Shown piece after piece: positions 6,690 through 62,392 of a DNA stretch of 64,000 bases. Every line of letters begins with the position of its first letter. Position 1 is the stretch's first letter. Made by a program: the position numbers and the translations under genes. Below the pieces are notes generated by a model that had not been told where the DNA came from, did no database searches, and saw only the letters and a list, made by a program, of their open reading frames with translations. The DNA comes from Candidatus Dojkabacteria bacterium (GTDB lineage: Bacteria > Patescibacteriota > Dojkabacteria > JAHIVN01): assembly GCA_016932045.1 (NCBI GenBank), contig JAFGDO010000010.1, forward strand, positions 1,759 to 65,758, given 5' to 3'.

Positions 6690-7277
6690 ATGATCACTAT
6701 CGGCATCCAAGGCGGCAAAGGTTCATACAATGAGGAAGCCTGCAATCATTTCTGCAAAGTAAATGGTATTAAAGATTATGAAATTAAATACCTCTTCACT
6801 ACAGAAAAGGTTCTTGAAAACTTACATTTAGGAAGAATTGATTATGCACAGTTTGCTATAGAGGATCCTTCGGGAGGGATTGTAAATGAATCAATTGACG
6901 CTTTAACAAAATATACATGCAAAATTATTGATAAATTTAAGTATCCCATGAACCACTGCTTGCTTATTCATAAGGACGTTTCAATGGATGATGTGAAAAC
7001 AGTAATGACACACCCGCATATTTATAAACAATGTATAAATACACTTAAAGAAAAATACCCTCAATTGGAAGTAAAGATTGGAAAAGGTGACTTAATAGAC
7101 CAATCAAAAGTTGCGGAGAAAATCTCTGAGGGTGATATAGATAAAACAACTGCTGTCATAGGCTCTAAGCTTCTCGCAGAAATATACAGCAATTTAAAGG
7201 TCATCGAAGAAGGAATACAAGACTCAAAGGATAACTATACAACTTTTATGTTCTGCAAGAGAAGATATATCATCTAG
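6690..7277 (+). CDS. Prephenate dehydratase (PDT) domain protein without an ACT domain.
   Basis: IGIQGGKGSYNEEA (cf. PheA IAFLGPKGSYS), AIEDPSGGIV, THPHIYKQC (cf. SHPQALxQC) and NYTTF (cf. NFTRF). It is a paralog of the gene at 58454..59083. Confidence 0.75.
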   Translation: MITIGIQGGKGSYNEEACNHFCKVNGIKDYEIKYLFTTEKVLENLHLGRIDYAQFAIEDPSGGIVNESIDALTKYTCKIIDKFKYPMNHCLLIHKDVSMDDVKTVMTHPHIYKQCINTLKEKYPQLEVKIGKGDLIDQSKVAEKISEGDIDKTTAVIGSKLLAEIYSNLKVIEEGIQDSKDNYTTFMFCKRRYII

Positions 7278-26936: not shown

Positions 26937-29900
26937 ATGTTTAAAGCTCTATTCCAAGTAAGAAAATTTTCCTCAAAAGTGTTACCTTTAGCGGTAACTT
27001 TTTTTATATTAGGAAATTATTTTCTTCCTTTATTTAACATTGTCGATTTTAGTGTAAATGCAGCACCAAATGTACCAACCAATCTTGGGTGGAATACATC
27101 TGCAACTCATCCTGGTAATCCTGGATACAGACCAGTTGAAATTACCTGCGGAGGATATACGAATCAAAACTCAGTAGCTCATAACTGGAGTGATGAGTCT
27201 GCAAGTGGTGCAGTAAGTTACGAGAGACAATGGCGGGCACCTGGATCTGCAACTTGGAGTACAGATCCAACTTCATACGTTAATCCTTACACCTCATTTA
27301 GTTCTTTTGGTGGAGGTGGAGGCACAGAGGGAATATGGAATACAAGAGTACGAGGATATGATGCTACCGGAGATCCAAGTGCTTGGAGCAATGAATGCCA
27401 AATCACATATGATGTAACCGCCCCAGTTGTACAAATAACCAGCCCAGGTGACGGAAATGTACTTAACGGCTTTGTAGACATACGAGGAAGTGTCACTGAC
27501 ACTAATCCTGATCATTATTATCTTGTTGTAAGAGAATTAGATAACACAGTAATTGATGGTCCTGGCACTGTTTACAGGTATGACTCTTTCACAGATGAAT
27601 TGCTTTTTACATGGGACACTACTTCAGTTACAGACGGGGATTATATAATCCATCTGGCCGCTCGAGATGCTGCTGGGAATAGAGATGATGCGGCCGGATC
27701 ACTTCATAGGATAACAGTAACAGTAGATAACACAGCACCGCCAACTCCTTCTCTTGTTTGGCCAACAGATGGTGCAGTTATTCATCCATCTATAGCTATT
27801 CTTGATTGGACTGATGAAACCGATCCGCATGGACCTGTTACTTACAACTATCAAAGCTCTTGGAGCGGTGGTTCTTTTGGTCCTGTTTCTACTGGCACAA
27901 ATTCTTTTATAAATGCTACTGGCAGTGCTGATAATACTTATCTATGGTAAGTTCAGGCCTGTGATAGTTTAAACAATTGCAGTGCCTGGTCAGGTCCTTG
28001 GGAAGTCACTATTGACGGCACTCCACCTTACTCAAATTTCCTAACTCCAACTGATAATTCCTACCATAACTCTCCCATTAATATTTCCGGATTAACAGCC
28101 GACGATGGAAGTGGAGTAGATTATGTTGATATATCCTGGACTACTTATAATGGAGCATCTTGTGACGACTTGAGCTGGGCTTACCTTACAACATTTGATA
28201 ACACGGATAATGATACACCTTTTAACTGGCCGGAGTCCCCTTACGCTTGGACTCCAGCATCAGAGGGAAGCTACTGTCTTATGGCTGAAGGTACTGATAA
28301 TGCCGGTAATCTGGAAACAACTGCATATGCAACCAATGTTGTTTATGATACGACAGCTCCATTGGTGCAAATTACAAACCCAAGCGACGGAGATCTGGTA
28401 AATGGAACTGTAAACATTCAAGGATCAGTAACCGATGATAATCTTTGGAGATACTGGTTTGTTGTACAAAATTCTGGAGGTACAACTGTAGCTGGACCAG
28501 GGACTGTCTATCATGACGGACCGATTGTAAATGTTAATTTGGGATGGGATACAACTGCTGTTCCTGATGGAGACTATACCATAAAACTTGAAGCACGTGA
28601 TAAAGCAGACAATAAAGATCCAATCGACTCTGTCCACTGGATAACAGTAACAGTAGATAATACAGCACCGCCAACCCCTTCTCTTGTTTGGCCGTCAGAT
28701 GGTGCCGTTATTCATCCATCCATAGCCATTCTTGATTGGACCGATGAAACTGATCCACATGGACCTGTTACATACAACTATCAAAGCTCCTGGAGCGGTG
28801 GCTCTTATGGCCCAGTTTCAACAGGAACGAATTCTTTCATTAACGCTACAGGTAGCGCTGATAATACTTACTTCTGGCAAGTTCAAGCTTGTGATAGTTT
28901 GAATAATTGTAGCGCTTGGTCGAGTCCTTGGGAAGTTACTATTGACAGTACACCTCCTTACTCTACATTCTTCGAACCAACAGATAATTCCTATCACAAT
29001 TCACCGATCGCAATTAGTGGACAGACAGCAGATGATGGAAGCGGTGTTGATTACGTAGATATATCATGGACCACCTATAACGGAGCATCTTGTGATGATT
29101 TAGGTTGGACATACCTAACAACATTTAACAATACTGATAATGACACGCCATTTAATTGGCCTGAATCCCCTTATGCTTGGACTCCAGCATCAGAAGGTAG
29201 CTATTGTCTGATGGCTGAAGGCACTGATAATGCGGGTAACCTTGAAACGACAGCTTACGCTACAAACGTTGTTTACGACACAACAGCTCCATATGTTGAG
29301 ATCACAGATCCTCTAGATGGTCAATATGTTAATGGTACTGTTGATATCTGGGGTTTTATCATAGATGATAATCTGAGTCACTATAATATTGCTATTTATC
29401 CAGGAGGTGTTGATACATGGAACTTTTCCGAAAGACTTGAACAACAGACAGTATACACATCAGAATTTGGAAATTCACAAATCTACTCGTGGGATACAAC
29501 AATCTATCCTGATGGGGACTATCAGATCCGTTTAGCTGCACGTGATTTAGCAGGTAATAGGGACCCGATGACTCCATCTTATCCCAATGAGATAGGAGAT
29601 TCAGTTCACATAATCACAGTTACAGTTGACAACACAGCTCCAACGGCTATGTTTGCAAATCAGTCTGTAGATGAGACAGTTACTTCATGGCCTGGGTATT
29701 CATTACTTGTGAGTTCTGAGCCAATAGTAAATATCAACTGTTCAACACTAGAGACACTGCCAAGAAATGCAGAAACCTTACCAAATCCAGTTGCCTTTAA
29801 CTGTACATTCGAGGACCTTGCGGGAAATCTTGGAACTAGTTCATATACAGTTACTGTAAATGATATTGTACCTTCAGTAGTTGTTAATCCTTCTAGTATA

Positions 29901-30719
29901 ACAGTTACTACAGCAGATCCTGCAGTCACACTTACAGCAACAGGAAGTGGTGGTAATGCACCATTAACTTATAGCTGGTCAGGAGCCTGCGCTGGTTCAA
30001 GTAGTACCACTACCGCTCCAAGTACAGTAGGAACACACGTCTGTACTGTAACAGTCACTGACGCTGATGGTGATACTGCTTCTGCAACAGCCACAGTTAC
30101 TGTAAATCCAGCTTCAACACCACCTGCCGGAGGACAACCAGGAACAGGTGCAGGAGGAGGAACTGTTGGCACACAGGTGACAGTTCTTGGTGCAGAAACC
30201 GGAGGTGAAGGAGAGGTAAACGGTGATGCAGAGTCAGACGAACAGGAAGAAGACGGTGAAGTCCTTGGAGAAGAAGAGTGTGAAAATAAATCTAAAGTAA
30301 GAGGCTACATCTACTATGATAACAATGACAATGATCAGAAGGATAAAGGAGAAGAAGGACTTGAAAGTATAGAGGTTAAAATCTATCTAGAAAAGGACGG
30401 AGAAAAAGATGTTGTAACAACAGAGAGAACAGATGAGAATGGATATTGGGAAGCAGAGGTTTGTCCGGGAGAATATAAAGCAGAGATAAATAAAGACGAT
30501 CTTCCCGAAAATGTCGCTCTCTCAAGCGATGAAGTTCTAGGACTTAGTGTAAAAGAAGATGAAGAAATGAATGATATAAACTTCACTGTAAAGAAAACCC
30601 AAGGAATTGACTTCAGCTGGTGGTGGTGTCTAGTACCTCTTGCTATAGTCGCTCTTGTTTATCTTGCCAGTAAATTCTTTAAGCCGAAAGAAGAACAGGA
30701 TGTTAAGGTCGGGATGTAG
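26937..30719 (+). pseudogene. Very large (~1260 aa) secreted or membrane-anchored repeat protein, interrupted by a single in-frame TAA at 27948-27950. The ORF track reports it as 26937..27950 plus 28170..30719.
   Basis: The two ORFs share a frame and the 27951-28169 interval has no stops. Homology to the downstream repeat runs straight across the stop, which is CAA (Gln) in the paralogous repeat at 28878. Other features are an N-terminal signal peptide, three tandem ~310-aa repeats, Ig-like domains, an SdrD-B/CnaB-like domain (RGYIYYDNNDND...TDENGYWEAEV) and a C-terminal TM anchor with a basic tail. Confidence 0.7.
27400..29640 (+). repeat. About 2.3 tandem copies of a ~930-nt intragenic repeat with roughly 85-90% nucleotide identity between copies.
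   Basis: For example, 27715-27945 against 28648-28878 are near-identical (ACAGTAACAGTAGATAACACAGCACCGCCAAC...). The units begin near 27420, 28350 and 29280. Confidence 0.6.
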
Positions 30720-58025: not shown

Positions 58026-58453
58026 GTTGTATCTTTATAACTTTTAGTAGGTAGAAGTTACAATATCAAATCAAATCACATAACAATAGTATCTTTGATA
58101 TAATATCTTATCACAAATTAAACGTAAAGAGCGGTTTAAAAGTAACACTTCGGGCGGGAAATGAAAGGACAGACTTGCAATAGCAAATTCAATTTTGAAC
58201 ACGCCGAAACACTATTGTCCCTCTGCATGCCCCGCATTCACTGGTAATGGTTTCTGGAATGTTTCCCGGATCAGAGTAGTATCTTGTAAAGTTCTGCTGG
58301 ATACCTTGCTGAGGACAATCGCCTACCCAGAAACTATCAAGTTTAGTGCAGACTCCTACATAAGTGACTCTGATTCTTTGAGGAATTTCTGGTGATTGCA
58401 TATGGCATTCTATAGGAATTCAAACTCGACAACAAGCACCCTAATAATATCGA

Positions 58454-59083
58454 TCATTTTTCACCCATAGGCTGATCCTCCTTTGGCGGAAATTGTTCAT
58501 ATCCATTTCCCTTCACCAATAAAAAAGTTGTATAATTCTTCTTATTATCCTGTAAATTACCTGCAATAACATCCAAGTCATAAATATCCGAAAGGATTTT
58601 CGAACCCATGACTGCTATATTTCTTGGCAGTTTCTTTGCACTCATCTTTTTTGCCACCATTGCATGATCAATTAAATCACCCTTACCGCTCACCTTTTTC
58701 AAATTTGGATACCTTTTAGCCAAAGTAGATTTGCACTGAGCTAAAACTTGAGGATGCGTCATGATTGTATCTATTTCAGCTAATTCTACACCCTTTCTTT
58801 TCATAAGGTAGTGAGAAATAATAATTGAAATCTCTCCGGCTACTTTGAACTTATACCTACCCATTGCATTTATAGATTCGTGCACTATTCCTCCGACTGA
58901 GTTGTGAATAGCAAACAGTCCATAATCTATTTTCCTTTCTTTCAGATGCCGAAGCACTCTTTCGGAAGTATAAAGGTACTTTACTTCATAATCTCTAATC
59001 TTGTGCCTTTCAATATAAGTCATAATGGCTTGCTCATTGAAGCTGCCTCTGCCACCTTGTATTCCGTATAGTACTTTACTCAT
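58454..59083 (-). CDS. Prephenate dehydratase (PDT) domain protein, paralog of 6690..7277.
   Basis: YGIQGGRGSFNEQA, AIHNSVGGIV, THPQVLAQC and NYTTF motifs, with no ACT domain. Confidence 0.75.
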   Translation of the reverse strand: MSKVLYGIQGGRGSFNEQAIMTYIERHKIRDYEVKYLYTSERVLRHLKERKIDYGLFAIHNSVGGIVHESINAMGRYKFKVAGEISIIISHYLMKRKGVELAEIDTIMTHPQVLAQCKSTLAKRYPNLKKVSGKGDLIDHAMVAKKMSAKKLPRNIAVMGSKILSDIYDLDVIAGNLQDNKKNYTTFLLVKGNGYEQFPPKEDQPMGEK

Positions 59084-59150
59084 TTTTCCAGTTTAAAATG
59101 TAAAATTTTATTAGTTTCCCAAATAGATTCTGATCGGCTTCTGTTCTTTT

Positions 59151-59305
59151 CATGTAGAATCCACTATGCTCGTTTACGGATTACGTGCCATGAAGATATC
59201 GCAAGATATTCTTCATGTTTTATCTCTACGAAAATTCCCATCGTTCCACTTGGAAATTTCCTAGAGCTATATAAAAAAACCTCCTTTCGGAGGTCTCTCT
59301 TTTCA
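59151..59305. repeat. Copy A of a ~155-nt conserved structured intergenic element ending in an A-run plus a CCTCC/GGAGG hairpin.
   Basis: It aligns with copy B (62008-62175) and shares GGATTACGTGCC, ACGAAAAT and CTAGAGCTATATAAAAAAACCTCC-TTTC-GGAGG. The internal stem GAAGATATC...GATATTCTTC differs from B's GAAGATCTC...GAGATTCTTC by a compensatory change. Confidence 0.45.
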
Positions 59306-59599
59306 TGCTAAACAGTCGGGTAGAGAACTACCTCCCAAAAAGAAGGTTTGCAAAAAAGAAAAAATTCTTGTTTGCTACTTTAGTTCTCATGGCGCAAATA
59401 TATCAGAAATAATTAACCTAAGTCAACATTTTAATTTAATACATATCAGATATCAAAATCAATCCACTAACCTTATTCATTAAAGTGTTTTTCTAATTGA
59501 TATTAACGATTTATAGGAAATAATCAAATTATTATATAAATCACTAAAAGAGAGGGAAAAAAACAAAAGACAATAAATGATTTATATGTATCAAAATTA

Positions 59600-61126
59600 T
59601 CAATTCTGGTTTTGAAAAACAAAAGGTGGTTTTTTGATATAAATGGTCATTCGATCTTTCTCTGGTTTATATTGACCATAATTGAATAGACTTTGAAAGA
59701 GGTTCCCTTTTAAAGCTTCTCCAAGAGTATAAAGATATATATCTCCCCACGTATGCATACACTTTGGAATATAATCTCTTTTCCCCAAAAAAGATGATCC
59801 CCCTCCGTCTACTCCAGGATTTAAATCTCCTATTGCCCTAGCATAGTCTCCCTCATCAGGGTTCCAAGTAAATCCAAACTCGCTTAAATTCTTGATCTCA
59901 TCTCCTTGCGGTCCAGTTTGTCCAATGCTCCTAAAAACATCTTCAAGTTTTACTTCATTAACTCCTGTTTCATCAGGCAGAATTATTACATTCCCACCAT
60001 CAACGAACAAAGTTCCTCTATCATGATTTCCTCGAGCATATCCAACTGCTACTTTTACTCCTCCTCTCATATCAAACTCACAGTTCCTGATAACAGTAAA
60101 TGATTGTGGGAATACAAATATAATTCCATTATCAGTTCTATCATCAATCACGCCGCATCTTACAAATCTGCAGCTATCTATCATGACGTAACCTGAAAGT
60201 ATATCTATAGCAAAACCTGTTCCCAAACCACTTGGTTCAAGATCACAATCTTCAAACATACAATTTGTAATTCTTGACTGTCTCGTCATCTCAAAAGCAG
60301 TATCGAATGAGAGAGCACCACCACATATTAATCCTTTACAATTTTGGAAAGTACACTTATCAATATTAACCTGAGCTTTACCATGGACAACTATACCACC
60401 ACCATCTACAACGTTCCAAACGGTATATCTTTTATCTGTTCTTGCAATATTAACTTTTTTTGCTCTTGCTCCAGCATGGCCATTTGTAAATCTTACATTT
60501 TCGATTTGTATATCGACACATTCATCTAAGTAACTTCTTCCCTCGCCATCAACATACATACATCTGCATTTCCCTTCTGCATCAAGAATTACTTTCCCTT
60601 GTCCTTCAATTTGAATACCACTATGTCTTGTATCTAGAACTAAAGGCTTTCCGTTTGGATAATATGTTCCTTCTTGTAAAACAACTTTATCTATCCCAGA
60701 TCCTTCTCTTTTTCTATCTCTTGCTATCCAATCAAGAGAATTCTGTAAGGAATATCTTGGATCGTCTTTAGTGCTCTCATCATGAGGCTGAATATTATAA
60801 AACTGATTCCCAGATGAATCTACTTCTATAGTTATATGCCCATCCGGAGGATCTAGTACTCTATCATATTCTCCAGTATTTCTTATATAAGAATCGGGAT
60901 TTGGAACTAGAGCTTCACAATTAGGAAGTCCTACCAAATTTCTTAATAAATTTCTCCTTGAAACACGTGCTTGAGGATCGCTGCATCTACCTTGATCCTC
61001 GGAAGTGAATCTTGGTACTGCAAAACGTGATAATACACATGCAGCAACCGCAATAGCAGCGGCACTAATTGCACCTCTTCTTGAAATAGTCATTATTCCA
61101 TTTTGAGTTTCTTGTTTTTCGATCAT
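59600..61126 (-). CDS. Secreted right-handed parallel beta-helix (pectate-lyase-fold) protein with a Tat-type signal.
   Basis: An N-terminal twin-arginine signal (SRRGAISAAAIAVAACVLS). Repeated PbH1-like turns follow (NCMFEDC, CTFQNCKG, IRNCEFD, NVRFTNGHAG). Confidence 0.6.
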   Translation of the reverse strand: MIEKQETQNGIMTISRRGAISAAAIAVAACVLSRFAVPRFTSEDQGRCSDPQARVSRRNLLRNLVGLPNCEALVPNPDSYIRNTGEYDRVLDPPDGHITIEVDSSGNQFYNIQPHDESTKDDPRYSLQNSLDWIARDRKREGSGIDKVVLQEGTYYPNGKPLVLDTRHSGIQIEGQGKVILDAEGKCRCMYVDGEGRSYLDECVDIQIENVRFTNGHAGARAKKVNIARTDKRYTVWNVVDGGGIVVHGKAQVNIDKCTFQNCKGLICGGALSFDTAFEMTRQSRITNCMFEDCDLEPSGLGTGFAIDILSGYVMIDSCRFVRCGVIDDRTDNGIIFVFPQSFTVIRNCEFDMRGGVKVAVGYARGNHDRGTLFVDGGNVIILPDETGVNEVKLEDVFRSIGQTGPQGDEIKNLSEFGFTWNPDEGDYARAIGDLNPGVDGGGSSFLGKRDYIPKCMHTWGDIYLYTLGEALKGNLFQSLFNYGQYKPEKDRMTIYIKKPPFVFQNQN

Positions 61127-61389
61127 ATATAATTACTATATACACTATTTATATACCTATCTATAACTCAATATCAATGAAAAGATTACATTTAATCCCC
61201 AAAATCCCAGACGAAATCTAGGTAAAAACAAGAGTCTTTACAAGACTAGATGAGAAAGAGGAAGATGAAAAAATTAAAACACTATAGGGTGGGGTAGGGG
61301 AGGAGAAGTAATTATTAGTTCACAAGGATAATGTGCTTCAAAATTCACTTTTTATTAATCTCTCTAATGTATAAACGGATATAAGATTT

Positions 61390-61722
61390 CTATGTCCTTC
61401 TTCCTATTCCTCTCATTATATCATTCGCAGTGTTTGCCAAACGGTGTACAATAACAGGCTCATCCCAATTCATACTAAATTGTACTAAAGCTCCAAAGCC
61501 TTTTCCCTGAATAACATAACATGCAGGACCCAGAGCACAAGTCCTTTGTAGTCTCCACCCCGACAAACTATTCGCTCCGGCTTGTTGGGCAGCCCATATC
61601 TTTTCCTCTAAAATAAATGCTAGTCCTTCAGCTCTGTCAGATGTAAACTTGCCTAAATACTTCATTGCTTCGTTACTATAGCAGACGCATCTTCTTGGAG
61701 CTGATTCTACTTGTTCAATCAT
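61390..61722 (-). CDS. Hypothetical protein (110 aa) in a locally GC-rich segment.
   Basis: An ORF with codon usage distinct from its neighbours and no recognisable motifs. Confidence 0.4.
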   Translation of the reverse strand: MIEQVESAPRRCVCYSNEAMKYLGKFTSDRAEGLAFILEEKIWAAQQAGANSLSGWRLQRTCALGPACYVIQGKGFGALVQFSMNWDEPVIVHRLANTANDIMRGIGRRT

Positions 61723-61759
61723 TAGATTATCATAAAGTCTAATATTGAAAACTACTTTT

Positions 61760-61890
61760 TATGATTACATCGAACACAAACTCATCTCGAAAATAATGTT
61801 TCTAAATTCTTGTTGATTAAGGCATTTTGTTTTATCGAGTGTCATGTCTCTATATTCAAAAAAAAATCCTCCCTTTCGGGAGGATTTTCC
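61760..61890. repeat. Degenerate copy C of the intergenic element family, ending in A9 plus an ATCCTCCC-TTTC-GGGAGGAT hairpin.
   Basis: It shares GATTAC.., CGAAAATA, TTGATTA and TCTATATTCAAAAAAAAATCCTCC with copies A and B. The hairpin plus T9 on the minus strand forms a strong intrinsic-terminator-like structure. Confidence 0.35.
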
Positions 61891-62007
61891 TAAATCTTAT
61901 ATCTATCTTTATACTTAACCCCCCGAAAGGTTACCTTTACTAATAAGGATAATTTCTAGAAGGTTAAGTTTTGAGTTTGATGCTTTGTTCATATTATTTG
62001 TATATCC

Positions 62008-62175
62008 CGTAGAAGCTTCACTTCGTTCAGCTCAACGGGATTACGTGCCCTGAAGATCTCGAAGAGATTCTTCGGGGTTTATCCCCACGAAAATTTGATT
62101 ATTCTAATTTTCATAGTTCTATTTTCTAGATCTATATAAAAAAACCTCCTTTTCAGGAGGTCATCTTTATTTCAG
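62008..62175. repeat. Copy B of the conserved structured intergenic element.
   Basis: See copy A. It ends in CTAGATCTATATAAAAAAACCTCC-TTTTCA-GGAGG. Confidence 0.45.
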
Positions 62176-62188
62176 TTATTTATTTTTT

Positions 62189-62392
62189 TTATTGAGCAGC
62201 TGCGACTTGACCTCCTTGCTCGGCCTGAACCATAAGGAGGATAATAATTACAAAAAATGCTATTACTAAAAATGTCATTACTGAAGTTGTTAGTCGTTTC
62301 ATTTTCTTATAATAATTGGTCAAATTTATGCTAAAAATCAGTTCAAATTGTGAGTTGCGGGGTATTTTACAATTATAGATCATAATTGTCAA
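62189..62392 (-). CDS. Small hydrophobic protein, possibly only about 37 aa from the internal Met.
   Basis: One TM helix (TFLVIAFFVIIILLMV). Its coding status is uncertain. Confidence 0.3.
   Translation of the reverse strand: MTIMIYNCKIPRNSQFELIFSINLTNYYKKMKRLTTSVMTFLVIAFFVIIILLMVQAEQGGQVAAAQ

What the first reader, a model, noticed from the sequence alone, without database searches (positions are those of the whole stretch)
59151..62175. Three homologous ~150-nt structured intergenic elements with compensatory base changes each end in an A-run plus a GGAGG-stem hairpin
Copies A (59151-59305), B (62008-62175) and a more degenerate C (61760-61890) share blocks of identical sequence (GGATTACGTGCC, ACGAAAAT, TTGATT..., CTAG(A/AT)CTATATAAAAAAACCTCC-loop-GGAGG). 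In the internal stem, A's GAAGATATC/GATATTCTTC and B's GAAGATCTC/GAGATTCTTC differ by a compensatory change, and the indels between A and B are not multiples of three. This favours a structured RNA over a peptide gene. On the minus strand each hairpin is followed by T7-T9, a strong intrinsic terminator, so each element would lie just downstream of a terminator and upstream of the next gene. Those downstream genes are a PDT paralog for A and a 110-aa GC-rich ORF for C and B. On the plus strand the elements would be small RNAs with their own terminators. They could be sRNA genes, a cis-regulatory leader family or a small non-autonomous repeat.
Basis: seen in the sequence. Interest (0 to 1): 0.65.

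Follow-up and report, generated by a model that had tools for sequence, protein, structure and literature searches.

The report
Attenuator terminators plus a structured spacer RNA
The three GGAGG hairpins look like the stop signals of ribosome-sensing "leader peptide" switches in an uncultured Dojkabacteria (candidate phyla radiation) genome, and two of them are followed by a conserved two-hairpin RNA spacer of unknown role that sits between switches arranged in series.

Summary
Partly confirmed and reinterpreted. Copies A and B are true homologues, about 80% identical. Copy C shares only the terminator hairpin, the T-run and ATATAG; its body matches A and B no better than chance.

All nearby genes are on the minus strand. 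On that strand each GGAGG hairpin plus T7-T9 is the 3:4 terminator of a candidate leader-peptide transcription attenuator. Each has a short ORF upstream:
- A: MRTKVANKNFFFFANLLFGR, before prephenate dehydratase.
- B: a 37-aa peptide rich in Ile, Leu, Val and Phe.
- C: MNKASNSKLNLLEIILISKGNLSGG.

B and C lie in series before a 110-aa protein predicted to have a RelE/ParE toxin fold. In each leader a GGAGG-type segment near the stop codon can pair with the terminator's 5' arm as an antiterminator. Homologous leaders, terminators and antiterminator segments occur in six other metagenomic contigs.

The A/B body has two hairpins, P1 and P2. A model built only from A and B also finds it in two of those contigs, at the site orthologous to A. 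P2 differs in sequence there but still forms a hairpin. In all four copies the body lies between one attenuator's terminator and the next short ORF. Its function is unknown. No Rfam family matches it. No RNA-seq was available, so nothing here shows transcription or regulation.

The parts
62364..62392 (-). Sigma-70-like promoter (TTGACA-17-TAAAAT) for the leader B / leader C / 110-aa gene unit
   Evidence: 11 of 12 consensus matches. CTTGACA...TGTAAAAT is conserved in L138.
62189..62302 (-). Leader ORF B, 37 aa: MKRLTTSVMTFLVIAFFVIIILLMVQAEQGGQVAAAQ. It is rich in Ile, Leu, Val and Phe. Segment 1 (UCCUCCUU, 62234-62241) lies in codons I21-L23.
   Evidence: Translation. Homologues MKQLTTS(L/F)ITFLVIAFFVLIIVTMVYAEGG occur in L138 and L139, with many synonymous differences.
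62208..62216 (-). Segment 2 of attenuator B (AGGAGGUCA), complementary to the terminator's 5' arm
   Evidence: Nine of nine bases complementary to 62155-62163 (pair I12). Duplex -16.3 kcal/mol against -5.7 +/- 2.3 for shuffles. The antiterminator forms when the ribosome is modelled at codon 22.
62136..62163 (-). Terminator B (segments 3:4): GACCUCCU-GAAA-AGGAGGU followed by U7
62036..62137 (-). Body copy B: AUAUAG, P1 (62083-62131), AUAAAC, P2 (62049-76), then GGCACGUAAUCC. Weaker homology to A continues to about 62008.
   Evidence: 117.9 bits. The sequence between terminator B and leader C in L138 is only about 30 nt, with no body.
61915..61992 (-). Leader ORF C, 25 aa: MNKASNSKLNLLEIILISKGNLSGG. 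It carries Leu and Ile codons. Segment 1 (CUUAACCUUC) pairs with segment 2 (GGGGGGUUAAG) at the stop codon.
   Evidence: Translation; folds. Homologous leaders occur in L138, L139 and L140. About 80% nucleotide identity was measured among the window, L138 and L139.
61855..61888 (-). Terminator C: AAAAUCCUCCC-GAAA-GGGAGGAUUUU followed by a U-run
   Evidence: (pair I5). Sub-threshold Rfam Phe_leader hit of 36.6 bits that ends here.
61723..61854 (-).
   Evidence: In L138, L139 and L140 the gene starts 15-25 nt after this terminator.
61390..61722 (-). 110-aa gene downstream of attenuators B and C, with a predicted RelE/ParE toxin fold
   Evidence: Four rare homologues with E-value up to 1e-10. AlphaFold2 model built on a 5-sequence alignment, mean pLDDT 84. 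Foldseek against PDB returns RelE, ParE, YafQ and HigB at E about 7e-4, TM 0.5-0.6. No Pfam hit.
59397..59426 (-). Sigma-70-like promoter (TTGACT-18-TATATT, with TG) for leader A
   Evidence: Equivalent TTGACA-18-TATACT promoters were read by eye upstream of the Phe leaders in L138 and L139.
59328..59390 (-). Leader ORF A, 20 aa: MRTKVANKNFFFFANLLFGR, with four consecutive Phe codons. Segment 1 is ACCUUC (59342-59347).
   Evidence: Translation. Homologous leaders: MRTISQGKVYYFFNNLLLWR (L138), MRTILQGKFGFFFKPSS (L139), MRTFAEKFFFFSSL (L141), MQKSKNTFFFFKSQI (L005), MQNRKQNTFFFFKSQI (L006).
59322..59336 (-). Segment 2 of attenuator A (GGGAGGUAGUUCUCU). It overlaps the leader's stop codon and pairs with AGAGAGACCUCC.
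   Evidence: Duplex -12.6 kcal/mol against -6.7 +/- 2.1 for shuffles. An antiterminator of -14.3 kcal/mol forms in the truncated, ribosome-masked fold. GGAGGTAGTTCTCTAC is identical in L138 and L139.
59272..59294 (-). Terminator A: ACCUCC-GAAA-GGAGGU followed by U7
59176..59272 (-). Body copy A: AUAUAG, P1 (59224-59266), AUAAAA, P2 (59189-59217), then GGCACGUAAUCC. Homology to B continues to about 59151.
   Evidence: 113.1 bits. Orthologous to L138 1815-1903 and L139 2062-2167.
59076..59153 (-). 25-aa upstream ORF MKRTEADQNLFGKLIKFYILNWKNE, which overlaps the PDT start by 8 nt. It is probably a degenerate remnant of a second Phe-rich leader.
   Evidence: Translation. By my own reading, its start region (UUCUACAUGAAAAGAAC) corresponds to the start of the second leaders in L138 and L139 (MKINKANKTN...RFTFPFYFFGNISP), which still have their own terminators. 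MAFFT itself does not place the two ATGs in register.
58454..59083 (-). Prephenate dehydratase gene (PDT domain only), downstream of attenuator A
   Evidence: Pfam PF00800, E 6e-38. A second PDT paralogue lies at 6690-7277 on the plus strand.

Best explanation
All functional features read on the minus strand, the strand of every nearby gene.

Each GGAGG-stem hairpin plus U-run is the terminator (segments 3:4) of a leader-peptide transcription attenuator. A short ORF is translated while RNA polymerase transcribes the leader.
- If the ribosome runs to the stop codon, it covers the GGAGG-type segment 2 that sits there. The terminator then forms and transcription stops.
- If the ribosome stalls at the regulatory codons, it covers segment 1. 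Those codons are four Phe codons in A, and Ile/Leu/Val codons in B and C. Segment 2 is left free to pair with the CCUCC arm (segment 3). The terminator cannot form, and polymerase reads on.

Attenuator A controls prephenate dehydratase. Attenuators B and C act in series on one transcript, ahead of a gene whose product is predicted to have a RelE/ParE fold.

The homologous A/B 'element' is the terminator plus a structured RNA of about 100 nt in the read-through transcript. It consists of a long hairpin P1 that is conserved in sequence, a short A-rich linker, and a hairpin P2 that is free to covary. It fills the untranslated gap between one attenuator's terminator and the start of the next short leader ORF. 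Copy A is ancestral, since L138 and L139 carry it at the same site. Copy B is a duplication or gene-conversion tract specific to this lineage, which replaced the short spacer between leaders B and C.

Inferred, not shown: the spacer folds the untranslated inter-attenuator RNA into inert hairpins. This would keep that RNA from pairing with the next leader. It might also protect the RNA or provide a processing site.
For: Attenuators in the window:
- The three hairpins are the only CCTCC-loop-GGAGG-T-run sites in 64 kb.
- Each leader has the ordered pattern CCUYC, GGRGG, CCUCC, GGAGG.
- Free folds give the 1:2 hairpin plus the terminator.
- With the ribosome modelled at the regulatory codons and the RNA cut before segment 4, the 2:3 antiterminator forms at -13.5 to -14.3 kcal/mol.

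Attenuators in relatives:
- In 14 of 15 leaders examined, across 7 loci, a segment complementary to the terminator's 5' arm was found in a search window set around the stop codon. Duplexes are -10.5 to -16.3 kcal/mol, and at most 7 of 300 shuffles do as well. No terminator was detected for the fifteenth, L138 Phe2.
- In L005 and L006 the stems are AUCCC/GGGAU instead of CCUCC/GGAGG, yet all four segments still match.
- The FFFF-type leader precedes PDT or CM-PDT in the window, L005, L006 and L141. It also occurs in L138 and L139, whose contigs end before the regulated gene.
- Rfam's Phe_leader model gives its best sub-threshold hits exactly at these leaders.
- The genome uses no Shine-Dalgarno sequences, so the GGAGG motifs are not ribosome-binding sites.

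Body:
- The A/B alignment has 22 pairs, 95.5% paired, with 2 compensatory exchanges and 3 wobble changes that pair only on the minus strand.
- Model R1, built from A and B alone, finds L138 (38.9 bits, E 4e-6) and L139 (33.2 bits) on the gene strand.
- The four-copy alignment is 96.3% paired, with 8 pairs changed on both sides. None of 500 shuffles reaches this, and slid controls give 31-55% paired.
- RNAalifold returns P1 and P2.
- Each copy folds P1 and P2 on its own, and three of four are more stable on the gene strand.
- Copy A is orthologous to the L138 and L139 copies across leader 1, terminator and body.
Against: - No expression or termination data exist for any of these organisms.
- At equilibrium the full-length leaders always fold into the terminator. 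The model therefore depends on co-transcriptional kinetics, as it does for the classical attenuators.
- The gene behind B and C is not an amino-acid biosynthesis gene.
- Leader B looks like a transmembrane peptide and is conserved at the amino-acid level. It may have a function of its own.
- L138 has no clear segment 1 for leader B (read by eye).
- Only four body copies, from three genomes, are known.
- The P2 covariation counts rest on an alignment fitted to the model. A structure-blind MAFFT alignment recovers only P1.
- Copy B is slightly more stable on the opposite strand.
- The proposed role of the body is inference only.
- Related single attenuators (L141, L005, L006) and the B-C junction in L138 work without a body. 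It is therefore dispensable for attenuation as such.
Confidence: 0.72

Rival explanations
1. The A/B body has no function. It is a passenger of a duplication or gene-conversion event between paralogous attenuators, or a low-copy selfish repeat that carries a terminator.
For: - Copy B is lineage-specific. L138 has only about 30 nt between terminator B and leader C.
- The body is absent from other single Phe attenuators (L141, L005, L006).
- No copies were found by exact-pattern scans of the genome and metagenome collections.
- A 10-bp direct repeat flanks copy A.
Against: - The body is kept at the orthologous site in three genomes whose 110-aa proteins are only about 42% identical. P1 is conserved in sequence, and P2 is rebuilt from different sequence.
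- By my count on the alignment, 7 of the 9 stem substitutions between A and B preserve pairing, while the unpaired linkers barely change.
- There are no terminal inverted repeats.
- The flanking repeat aligns to ancestral sequence in L138 and L139, so it is not a target-site duplication.
Confidence: 0.15
2. The elements are plus-strand small RNAs, antisense to the leaders. Each would start near GGAUUACGUGCC and end at the hairpin acting as a bidirectional terminator. They might act as antitoxin-like RNAs convergent with the small hydrophobic ORF.
For: - On the plus strand the hairpins are followed by partial U-tracts.
- Copy B folds slightly better on the plus strand.
- TAGAAT (A) and TAGAAG (B) lie upstream of the 12-mer on the plus strand.
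- The 37-aa ORF resembles a type I toxin and converges on copy B.
Against: - The clean U7-U9 tracts are on the minus strand.
- The wobble pairs in P1 and P2 become A-C mismatches on the plus strand.
- Three of four copies are more stable on the gene strand.
- The would-be promoter and the 12-mer are not conserved in L138 or L139.
- No qualifying plus-strand promoter was found there.
- No direct repeats link the body to the 5' end of the 37-aa mRNA, as a par/Fst-type pairing would need.
Confidence: 0.06
3. Leaders B and C are not amino-acid sensors. The 37-aa ORF would be a genuine small membrane protein, a toxin, or a sensor of membrane insertion. The 25-aa ORF could be a peptide partner of the RelE/ParE-like protein. 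Both would be followed by ordinary terminators.
For: - Leader B has a transmembrane-like core and is conserved at the amino-acid level, with many synonymous changes.
- No antitoxin gene is evident next to the 110-aa gene.
- The regulated gene has no link to branched-chain amino acids.
Against: - The ORF-internal or stop-proximal GGAGG segment is complementary to the terminator arm in every homologue. An ordinary gene followed by an ordinary terminator does not explain this.
- The Leu and Ile codons of leader C coincide with segment 1.
- I found no promoter in the roughly 30 nt between terminator B and leader C in L138 by eye, so the units appear to be in series.
Confidence: 0.12
4. The palindromes act at the DNA level, as operators or recombination sites for a dimeric protein, rather than as RNA.
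For: Symmetric compensatory changes would also preserve a DNA palindrome.
Against: - P2 has entirely different sequences in L138 and L139 while staying a hairpin. A sequence-specific operator would not tolerate this.
- The wobble changes preserve RNA pairing but not DNA symmetry.
Confidence: 0.03

Closest known systems
E. coli pheA (pheL) leader-peptide attenuator; Rfam Phe_leader RF01859
   Same: - A short ORF with a run of Phe codons.
- Alternative 1:2, 2:3 and 3:4 pairings.
- A GC-rich terminator with a U-run.
- A prephenate dehydratase gene downstream.
- Rfam's model gives its best sub-threshold hits on these leaders.
   Different: - Scores of 24.7-37.6 bits are below the gathering score of 55, so these are not members of that family.
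- The host is a Dojkabacteria (candidate phyla radiation) MAG that lacks Shine-Dalgarno sequences.
- The PDT here has no chorismate mutase or ACT domain.
- A structured spacer of about 100 nt and a remnant second leader follow the terminator.
ilvL, ivbL and leuL branched-chain amino-acid attenuators of Enterobacteria (from general knowledge)
   Same: Leaders B and C are rich in Ile, Leu and Val codons placed on or just before segment 1, with a downstream terminator and antiterminator.
   Different: The regulated gene encodes a protein with a predicted RelE/ParE fold, not a biosynthetic enzyme. Two such attenuators act in series.
Tandem attenuators of the Salmonella mgtCBR leader (PMC3641672; title and abstract only)
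   Same: Two short ORFs in one long leader, each thought to control the formation of stem-loops that decide whether transcription continues.
   Different: The organism, the signals and the sequences all differ. Here the two units are classical terminator-based attenuators. In the window's B-C unit and in the Phe units of L138 and L139, they are separated by a conserved two-hairpin spacer.
Structured intergenic repeats such as ERIC, BOX and Correia elements (from general knowledge)
   Same: Repeated segments of about 100-150 nt in transcribed intergenic DNA that fold into stable hairpins.
   Different: Only two copies were found in about 72 kb. There are no terminal inverted repeats and no target-site duplication. 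One copy is conserved at an orthologous site in other genomes.

Membership tests
Leader-peptide (ribosome-mediated) transcription attenuator | A short ORF in the leader carrying clustered codons for the sensed amino acid | tested here: met
   A has FFFF. B has VIIILLMV within FLVIAFFVIIILLMV. C has LNLLEIILI. All three are conserved in relatives.
Leader-peptide (ribosome-mediated) transcription attenuator | An intrinsic terminator between the leader ORF and the regulated gene | tested here: met
   Three GC-rich hairpins followed by U7-U9.
Leader-peptide (ribosome-mediated) transcription attenuator | A mutually exclusive antiterminator (2:3), placed so that a stalled ribosome frees segment 2 and a terminating ribosome covers it | tested here: met
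   Folds with a modelled ribosome. A complementary segment 2 was found in a search window set around the stop codon in 14 of 15 leaders, at -10.5 to -16.3 kcal/mol. In window leader B it lies 25 nt before the stop.
Leader-peptide (ribosome-mediated) transcription attenuator | The regulated gene belongs to the pathway of the sensed amino acid | tested here: inconclusive
   Met for A (PDT, or CM-PDT in L141). Not met for B and C, where the gene product has a predicted RelE/ParE fold.
Leader-peptide (ribosome-mediated) transcription attenuator | Read-through rises when the cognate charged tRNA is scarce | not testable with these tools
   This needs reporter assays or Term-seq.
Rfam Phe_leader (RF01859) | A score at or above the family's gathering threshold of 55 bits | tested here: not met
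   24.7, 27.4 and 36.6 bits in the window. 33.3 and 37.6 bits in L139 and L140.
Any described RNA family, for the P1-P2 body | A match to an Rfam 15 covariance model | tested here: not met
   Nothing at the gathering threshold except one tRNA. No hit at E up to 10 lies within the body; every match in these intergenic regions is anchored on a terminator hairpin.
Independent small-RNA gene on the plus strand | Its own conserved promoter, plus a terminator with a U-tract on that strand | tested here: not met
   No qualifying plus-strand promoter. The U-tracts are interrupted. The upstream region is not conserved in L138 or L139.
MITE or other non-autonomous transposable element | Terminal inverted repeats, a target-site duplication, and many dispersed copies | tested here: not met
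   No terminal inverted repeats. The 10-bp flanking repeat is ancestral sequence. Two copies in the window plus L002. The rest of the genome could not be searched.
RelE/ParE toxin superfamily, for the 110-aa protein | RelE/ParE fold | tested here: met
   AlphaFold2 mean pLDDT 84. The top Foldseek PDB hits are RelE, ParE, YafQ and HigB.
RelE/ParE toxin superfamily, for the 110-aa protein | Sequence-profile membership and an adjacent antitoxin gene | tested here: not met
   No Pfam hit. No PDB sequence relative. No antitoxin-like ORF next to it in the window. L136 has a 131-aa ORF upstream and an HTH gene nearby.

The most novel reading that the evidence does not exclude
A toxin with a RelE/ParE fold and no antitoxin gene is kept silent by two ribosome-stalling attenuators in series. 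Translation stress, such as Ile or Leu starvation in a symbiont that cannot make amino acids, would then license toxin expression directly. The P1-P2 RNA would be a new class of regulatory RNA specific to tandem attenuators, for example a binding site for a protein or ligand, or an RNase III processing module, rather than a passive spacer.
Probability: 0.15. Interest if true: 0.8.

Novelty: new variant of a known kind. Interest (0 to 1): 0.6.

Why it matters
- Leader-peptide attenuation is a textbook mechanism, but it is known mainly from Proteobacteria. A full-text search of the held paper library found nothing that links it to the candidate phyla radiation.
- Here it appears in a Dojkabacteria-related clade in several forms. 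These are Phe leaders before PDT or CM-PDT, tandem Phe-rich leaders, and tandem Ile/Leu-type leaders before a gene whose product has a predicted RelE/ParE fold.
- This suggests that these reduced genomes, which lack Shine-Dalgarno sequences, still couple transcription to translation and sense amino-acid supply through ribosome stalling.
- Placing a toxin-like gene under such control would be an unusual regulatory logic.
- The P1-P2 spacer is an undescribed structured RNA motif with a specific positional association, always between serial attenuators. That association gives a concrete hypothesis to test.

Tried and rejected
- **Peptide genes inside the body.** The reading frames are not conserved between A and B on either strand, because indels shift the frame (sequences read).
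- **Copy C as a degenerate copy of the body.** Its scores are at chance level.
- **A mobile element with a target-site duplication.** TCTTTTCATG flanks copy A exactly. However, the copy next to the terminator aligns to sequence upstream of the terminator in L138 and L139. The other copy is the start of the remnant second-leader ORF. There are no terminal inverted repeats.
- **Element A as a decayed chorismate mutase gene.** L003 and L141 have chorismate mutase upstream of PDT, but tblastn found no trace of it here.
- **An internal sigma-70 promoter in the body driving the next leader.** No conserved -35/-10 pair was found (plus inspection of the four copies).
- **A tRNA-like or T-box element.** ARAGORN and Rfam found nothing.
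- **P3 hairpin or Shine-Dalgarno sequestration as an expression platform.** The genome does not use Shine-Dalgarno sequences. The 12-mer and P3 are not conserved in L138 or L139.
- **Exact-pattern scans for more copies.** The genome and metagenome collections gave no hits. The one viral hit is a chance match in GC-rich sequence that looks coding.
- **Eighty other PDT loci from candidate phyla radiation genomes.** None has an FFFF leader, apart from one weak F-run ORF in L078. None has the body.
- **Single-sequence AlphaFold2 model of the 110-aa protein.** It was too poor to use, with pLDDT 50.

Full report
**Observation.** The window comes from a Candidatus Dojkabacteria MAG. The PDT protein is 100% identical to JW766_02570.

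Copies A (59151-59305) and B (62008-62175) are clearly homologous. They are about 80% identical from the hairpin to the shared 12-mer. The local alignment score is 71, against 16.3 +/- 2.4 for shuffles. GGATTACGTGCC and CTATATAAAAAAACCTCC each occur exactly twice. The compensatory change is real, and a second one lies in the same stem.

Copy C is different. After its terminator, its sequence matches A and B no better than shuffled sequence under four scoring schemes. Covariance models do not find it. It shares only the CCUCC(C)-GAAA-(G)GGAGG hairpin, the T-run and ATATAG. The finding is therefore two copies of a body plus three related terminators.

**Context.** All genes from 58.4 to 63.3 kb are on the minus strand. 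In order they are:
- a glutamine cyclotransferase;
- a 37-aa ORF;
- element B;
- a 25-aa ORF;
- the C hairpin;
- a 110-aa ORF;
- a 508-aa beta-helix protein;
- a 20-aa ORF;
- element A;
- PDT.

CCTCC-loop-GGAGG followed by a T-run occurs only at these three places in 64 kb. The clean T7-T9 is always on the minus strand, and none is expected by chance. The genome shows almost no Shine-Dalgarno sequences, so these GGAGG motifs are not ribosome-binding sites.

**The hairpins fit attenuator terminators.** Upstream of each hairpin, on the minus strand, lies a short ORF:
- A: MRTKVANKNFFFFANLLFGR (59390-59328).
- B: MKRLTTSVMTFLVIAFFVIIILLMVQAEQGGQVAAAQ (62302-62189).
- C: MNKASNSKLNLLEIILISKGNLSGG (61992-61915).

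Each leader carries, in order, a CCUYC segment, a GGRGG segment, then the CCUCC and GGAGG arms of the terminator.

Free folding gives the 1:2 hairpin plus the terminator. I then masked the nucleotides a ribosome would cover when stalled at the Phe or Ile/Leu codons, and cut the RNA before segment 4. In that state segment 2 pairs with segment 3, at -13.5 to -14.3 kcal/mol. In B the pairing is AGGAGGUCA with UGACCUCCU, nine of nine bases.

At equilibrium the terminator always wins. This is also true of the classical attenuators, so the model is kinetic. Canonical promoters precede leaders A and B. None was found before leader C, so B and C appear to act in series.

**Comparative support.** Contigs that encode relatives of PDT or of the 110-aa protein show the same devices.
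- L005 and L006 (PDT 71% and 69% identical) have MQKSKNTFFFFKSQI and MQNRKQNTFFFFKSQI with a terminator. Their four segments are AUCCC/GGGAU instead of CCUCC/GGAGG, so all four segments have changed together.
- L141 has a promoter, MRTFAEKFFFFSSL and a terminator in front of a chorismate mutase-PDT pair.
- L138 and L139 carry homologues of the 110-aa gene, preceded by homologues of leader B and leader C, each with its own terminator. L140 carries leader C only, because its contig starts at the leader's ATG.
- Leader C is about 80% identical in nucleotides among the window, L138 and L139, although the proteins are only about 42% identical to the window's.
- Downstream of that gene, L138 and L139 have a homologue of leader A (MRTISQGKVYYFFNNLLLWR, MRTILQGKFGFFFKPSS). 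The segment-2 sequence GGAGGTAGTTCTCTAC is identical to the window's. A second Phe-rich leader with its own terminator follows.

In 14 of the 15 leaders examined, a segment complementary to the terminator's 5' arm was found in a search window set around the stop codon. The duplexes are -10.5 to -16.3 kcal/mol, and at most 7 of 300 shuffles do as well. No terminator was detected for the fifteenth, L138 Phe2. Among 80 other PDT loci from candidate phyla radiation genomes there is no such leader, so the device is specific to this clade.

Rfam has no family at threshold for these leaders. Its Phe_leader model gives its best sub-threshold hits exactly on them.

**The body.** Between the T-run and the 12-mer, A and B fold on the minus strand into two hairpins:
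- P1 is long and AU-rich.
- P2 is GAAGAaUAUC/GAUAUCUUC in A.

The A/B alignment has 22 pairs, 95.5% paired. It shows two A-U to C-G exchanges in P2 and three wobble changes in P1 that pair only on the minus strand. Two sequences give no statistical power, and 122 of 500 shuffles do as well.

A covariance model built only from A and B then found matches in L138 (1815-1903, 38.9 bits, E 4e-6) and L139 (2062-2167, 33.2 bits). Both are on the gene strand, immediately after the terminator of the leader-A homologue. P1 is nearly identical in sequence there. P2 has a completely different sequence (CCCCGUAGA/UCUACGGGG in L138, CCCCGCAGC/GCUUGCGGGG in L139) but still forms a hairpin.

On the four-copy alignment, 96.3% of cells pair and 8 pairs have changes on both sides. 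None of 500 shuffles reaches this, and slid controls give 31-55% paired. RNAalifold returns the same P1 and P2.

There is a caveat. That alignment is fitted to the model, and a structure-blind MAFFT alignment recovers only P1. Against this, each copy folds P2 on its own. Three of the four copies are more stable on the gene strand.

An alignment of the whole region shows that copy A is orthologous to the L138 and L139 copies, from leader 1 through the terminator and body. By my own reading, the correspondence continues to the start of the next short ORF, although MAFFT does not place the two ATGs in register. On that reading, the window's 25-aa ORF that overlaps the PDT start is a decayed second leader.

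Copy B is lineage-specific. L138 has only about 30 nt between terminator B and leader C, and L139 has a 96-aa ORF there. The improved model finds only these four copies in 618 kb of related DNA. Exact-pattern scans of the large collections found none.

**How it most likely works.**

Shown by sequence and comparison: there are three candidate ribosome-mediated attenuators. One sits before PDT and two sit in series before the 110-aa gene. A conserved two-hairpin RNA lies in the untranslated gap between serial attenuators.

Inferred: stalling at Phe codons, or at Ile/Leu/Val codons, frees segment 2, prevents the terminator from forming, and lets polymerase proceed.

The role of the spacer is the weakest step. 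I propose that it folds the inter-attenuator RNA into inert hairpins. In L138 and L139, P1 extends into the distal U-tract (UUAUUUA pairing with UAAAUAA). Such folding would insulate the next leader. It might also protect the read-through RNA or provide a processing site.

The body is not needed for attenuation as such, because L141, L005, L006 and the B-C junction in L138 all lack it.

**The regulated gene of B and C.** The 110-aa ORF has only a handful of homologues. An AlphaFold2 model built on a five-sequence alignment has mean pLDDT 84. It matches RelE, ParE, YafQ and HigB toxins. There is no Pfam hit, no PDB sequence relative and no obvious antitoxin gene. A toxin-fold gene behind two serial attenuators is the most unusual aspect of the locus, but it is untested.

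**Comparison with known systems and novelty.** The mechanism matches classical leader-peptide attenuation (pheA, ilv, leu). The closest precedent for tandem leader ORFs in the held library is the Salmonella mgtCBR leader (PMC3641672). Membership in Rfam Phe_leader was tested and not met.

I found no paper in the held library that links leader-peptide attenuation with the candidate phyla radiation. The P1-P2 spacer matches no Rfam family.

I rate the locus a new variant of a known kind. Its cis-regulatory-leader option is the one supported.

Noticed in passing
window 61390-61722 (-): The 110-aa 'GC-rich ORF' is a real but rare protein family, with four homologues at E-value up to 1e-10 among 1.8 billion representative proteins. 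Its predicted fold is RelE/ParE. No antitoxin gene is evident beside it. In L136 and L137 a homologue sits after a 131-aa ORF and next to an Xre-type HTH gene.
   Followed up: partly
window 17255, 19410, 21608, 30750, 32432: A second family of near-identical palindromic terminator-like hairpins (AGACAAGGGGCTTAAGCCCCTTGT) has five members. They could act in both directions. This genome reuses a small number of terminator sequences.
   Followed up: no
whole window (37 start sites listed): Almost no gene has a Shine-Dalgarno sequence upstream. Start codons are preceded by A/T-rich sequence, so initiation appears to be SD-independent.
   Followed up: partly
window 59600-61126 (-): The 508-aa beta-helix protein has a twin-arginine-like signal (read by eye) and is nearly an orphan, with one 33%-identical hit. 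It is absent from L138 and L139, where the Phe leader follows the 110-aa gene directly. It therefore looks like an insertion into the attenuator cluster.
   Followed up: partly
L138 1912-2019; L139 2196-2303: Second Phe-rich leaders (MKINKANKTNTILNAVKSFTNRFTFPFYFFGNISP and MRNNVTNKTNIILKTVNSFTSRFAFPFYFFGNLSP) follow the body, each with its own GGGAGG segment. The script detected a terminator for L139 only. A CCTCC/GGAGG hairpin with an interrupted T-run in L138 was seen by eye. The contigs end before the regulated gene.
   Followed up: partly
window 6690-7277 (+): A second PDT paralogue (195 aa) has only a 63-nt upstream gap and no leader peptide or terminator.
   Followed up: partly
window 27709-28008 and 28639-28938: A 300-nt direct repeat, 87% identical and spaced 930 nt apart, lies within large ORFs (26937-27950 and 28170-30719). 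It probably reflects repeated protein domains.
   Followed up: no
window 58189-58401 (-); L140 580-795: The 70-aa Cys-containing ORF downstream of PDT appears, by eye, to be conserved in L140. There it follows the RelE/ParE-like gene directly, so this neighbourhood is syntenic but rearranged between relatives.
   Followed up: no
L139 903-1193: A 96-aa ORF rich in charged residues lies between the leader B terminator and leader C, at the same junction where the window carries body copy B. This junction seems to tolerate insertions.
   Followed up: no
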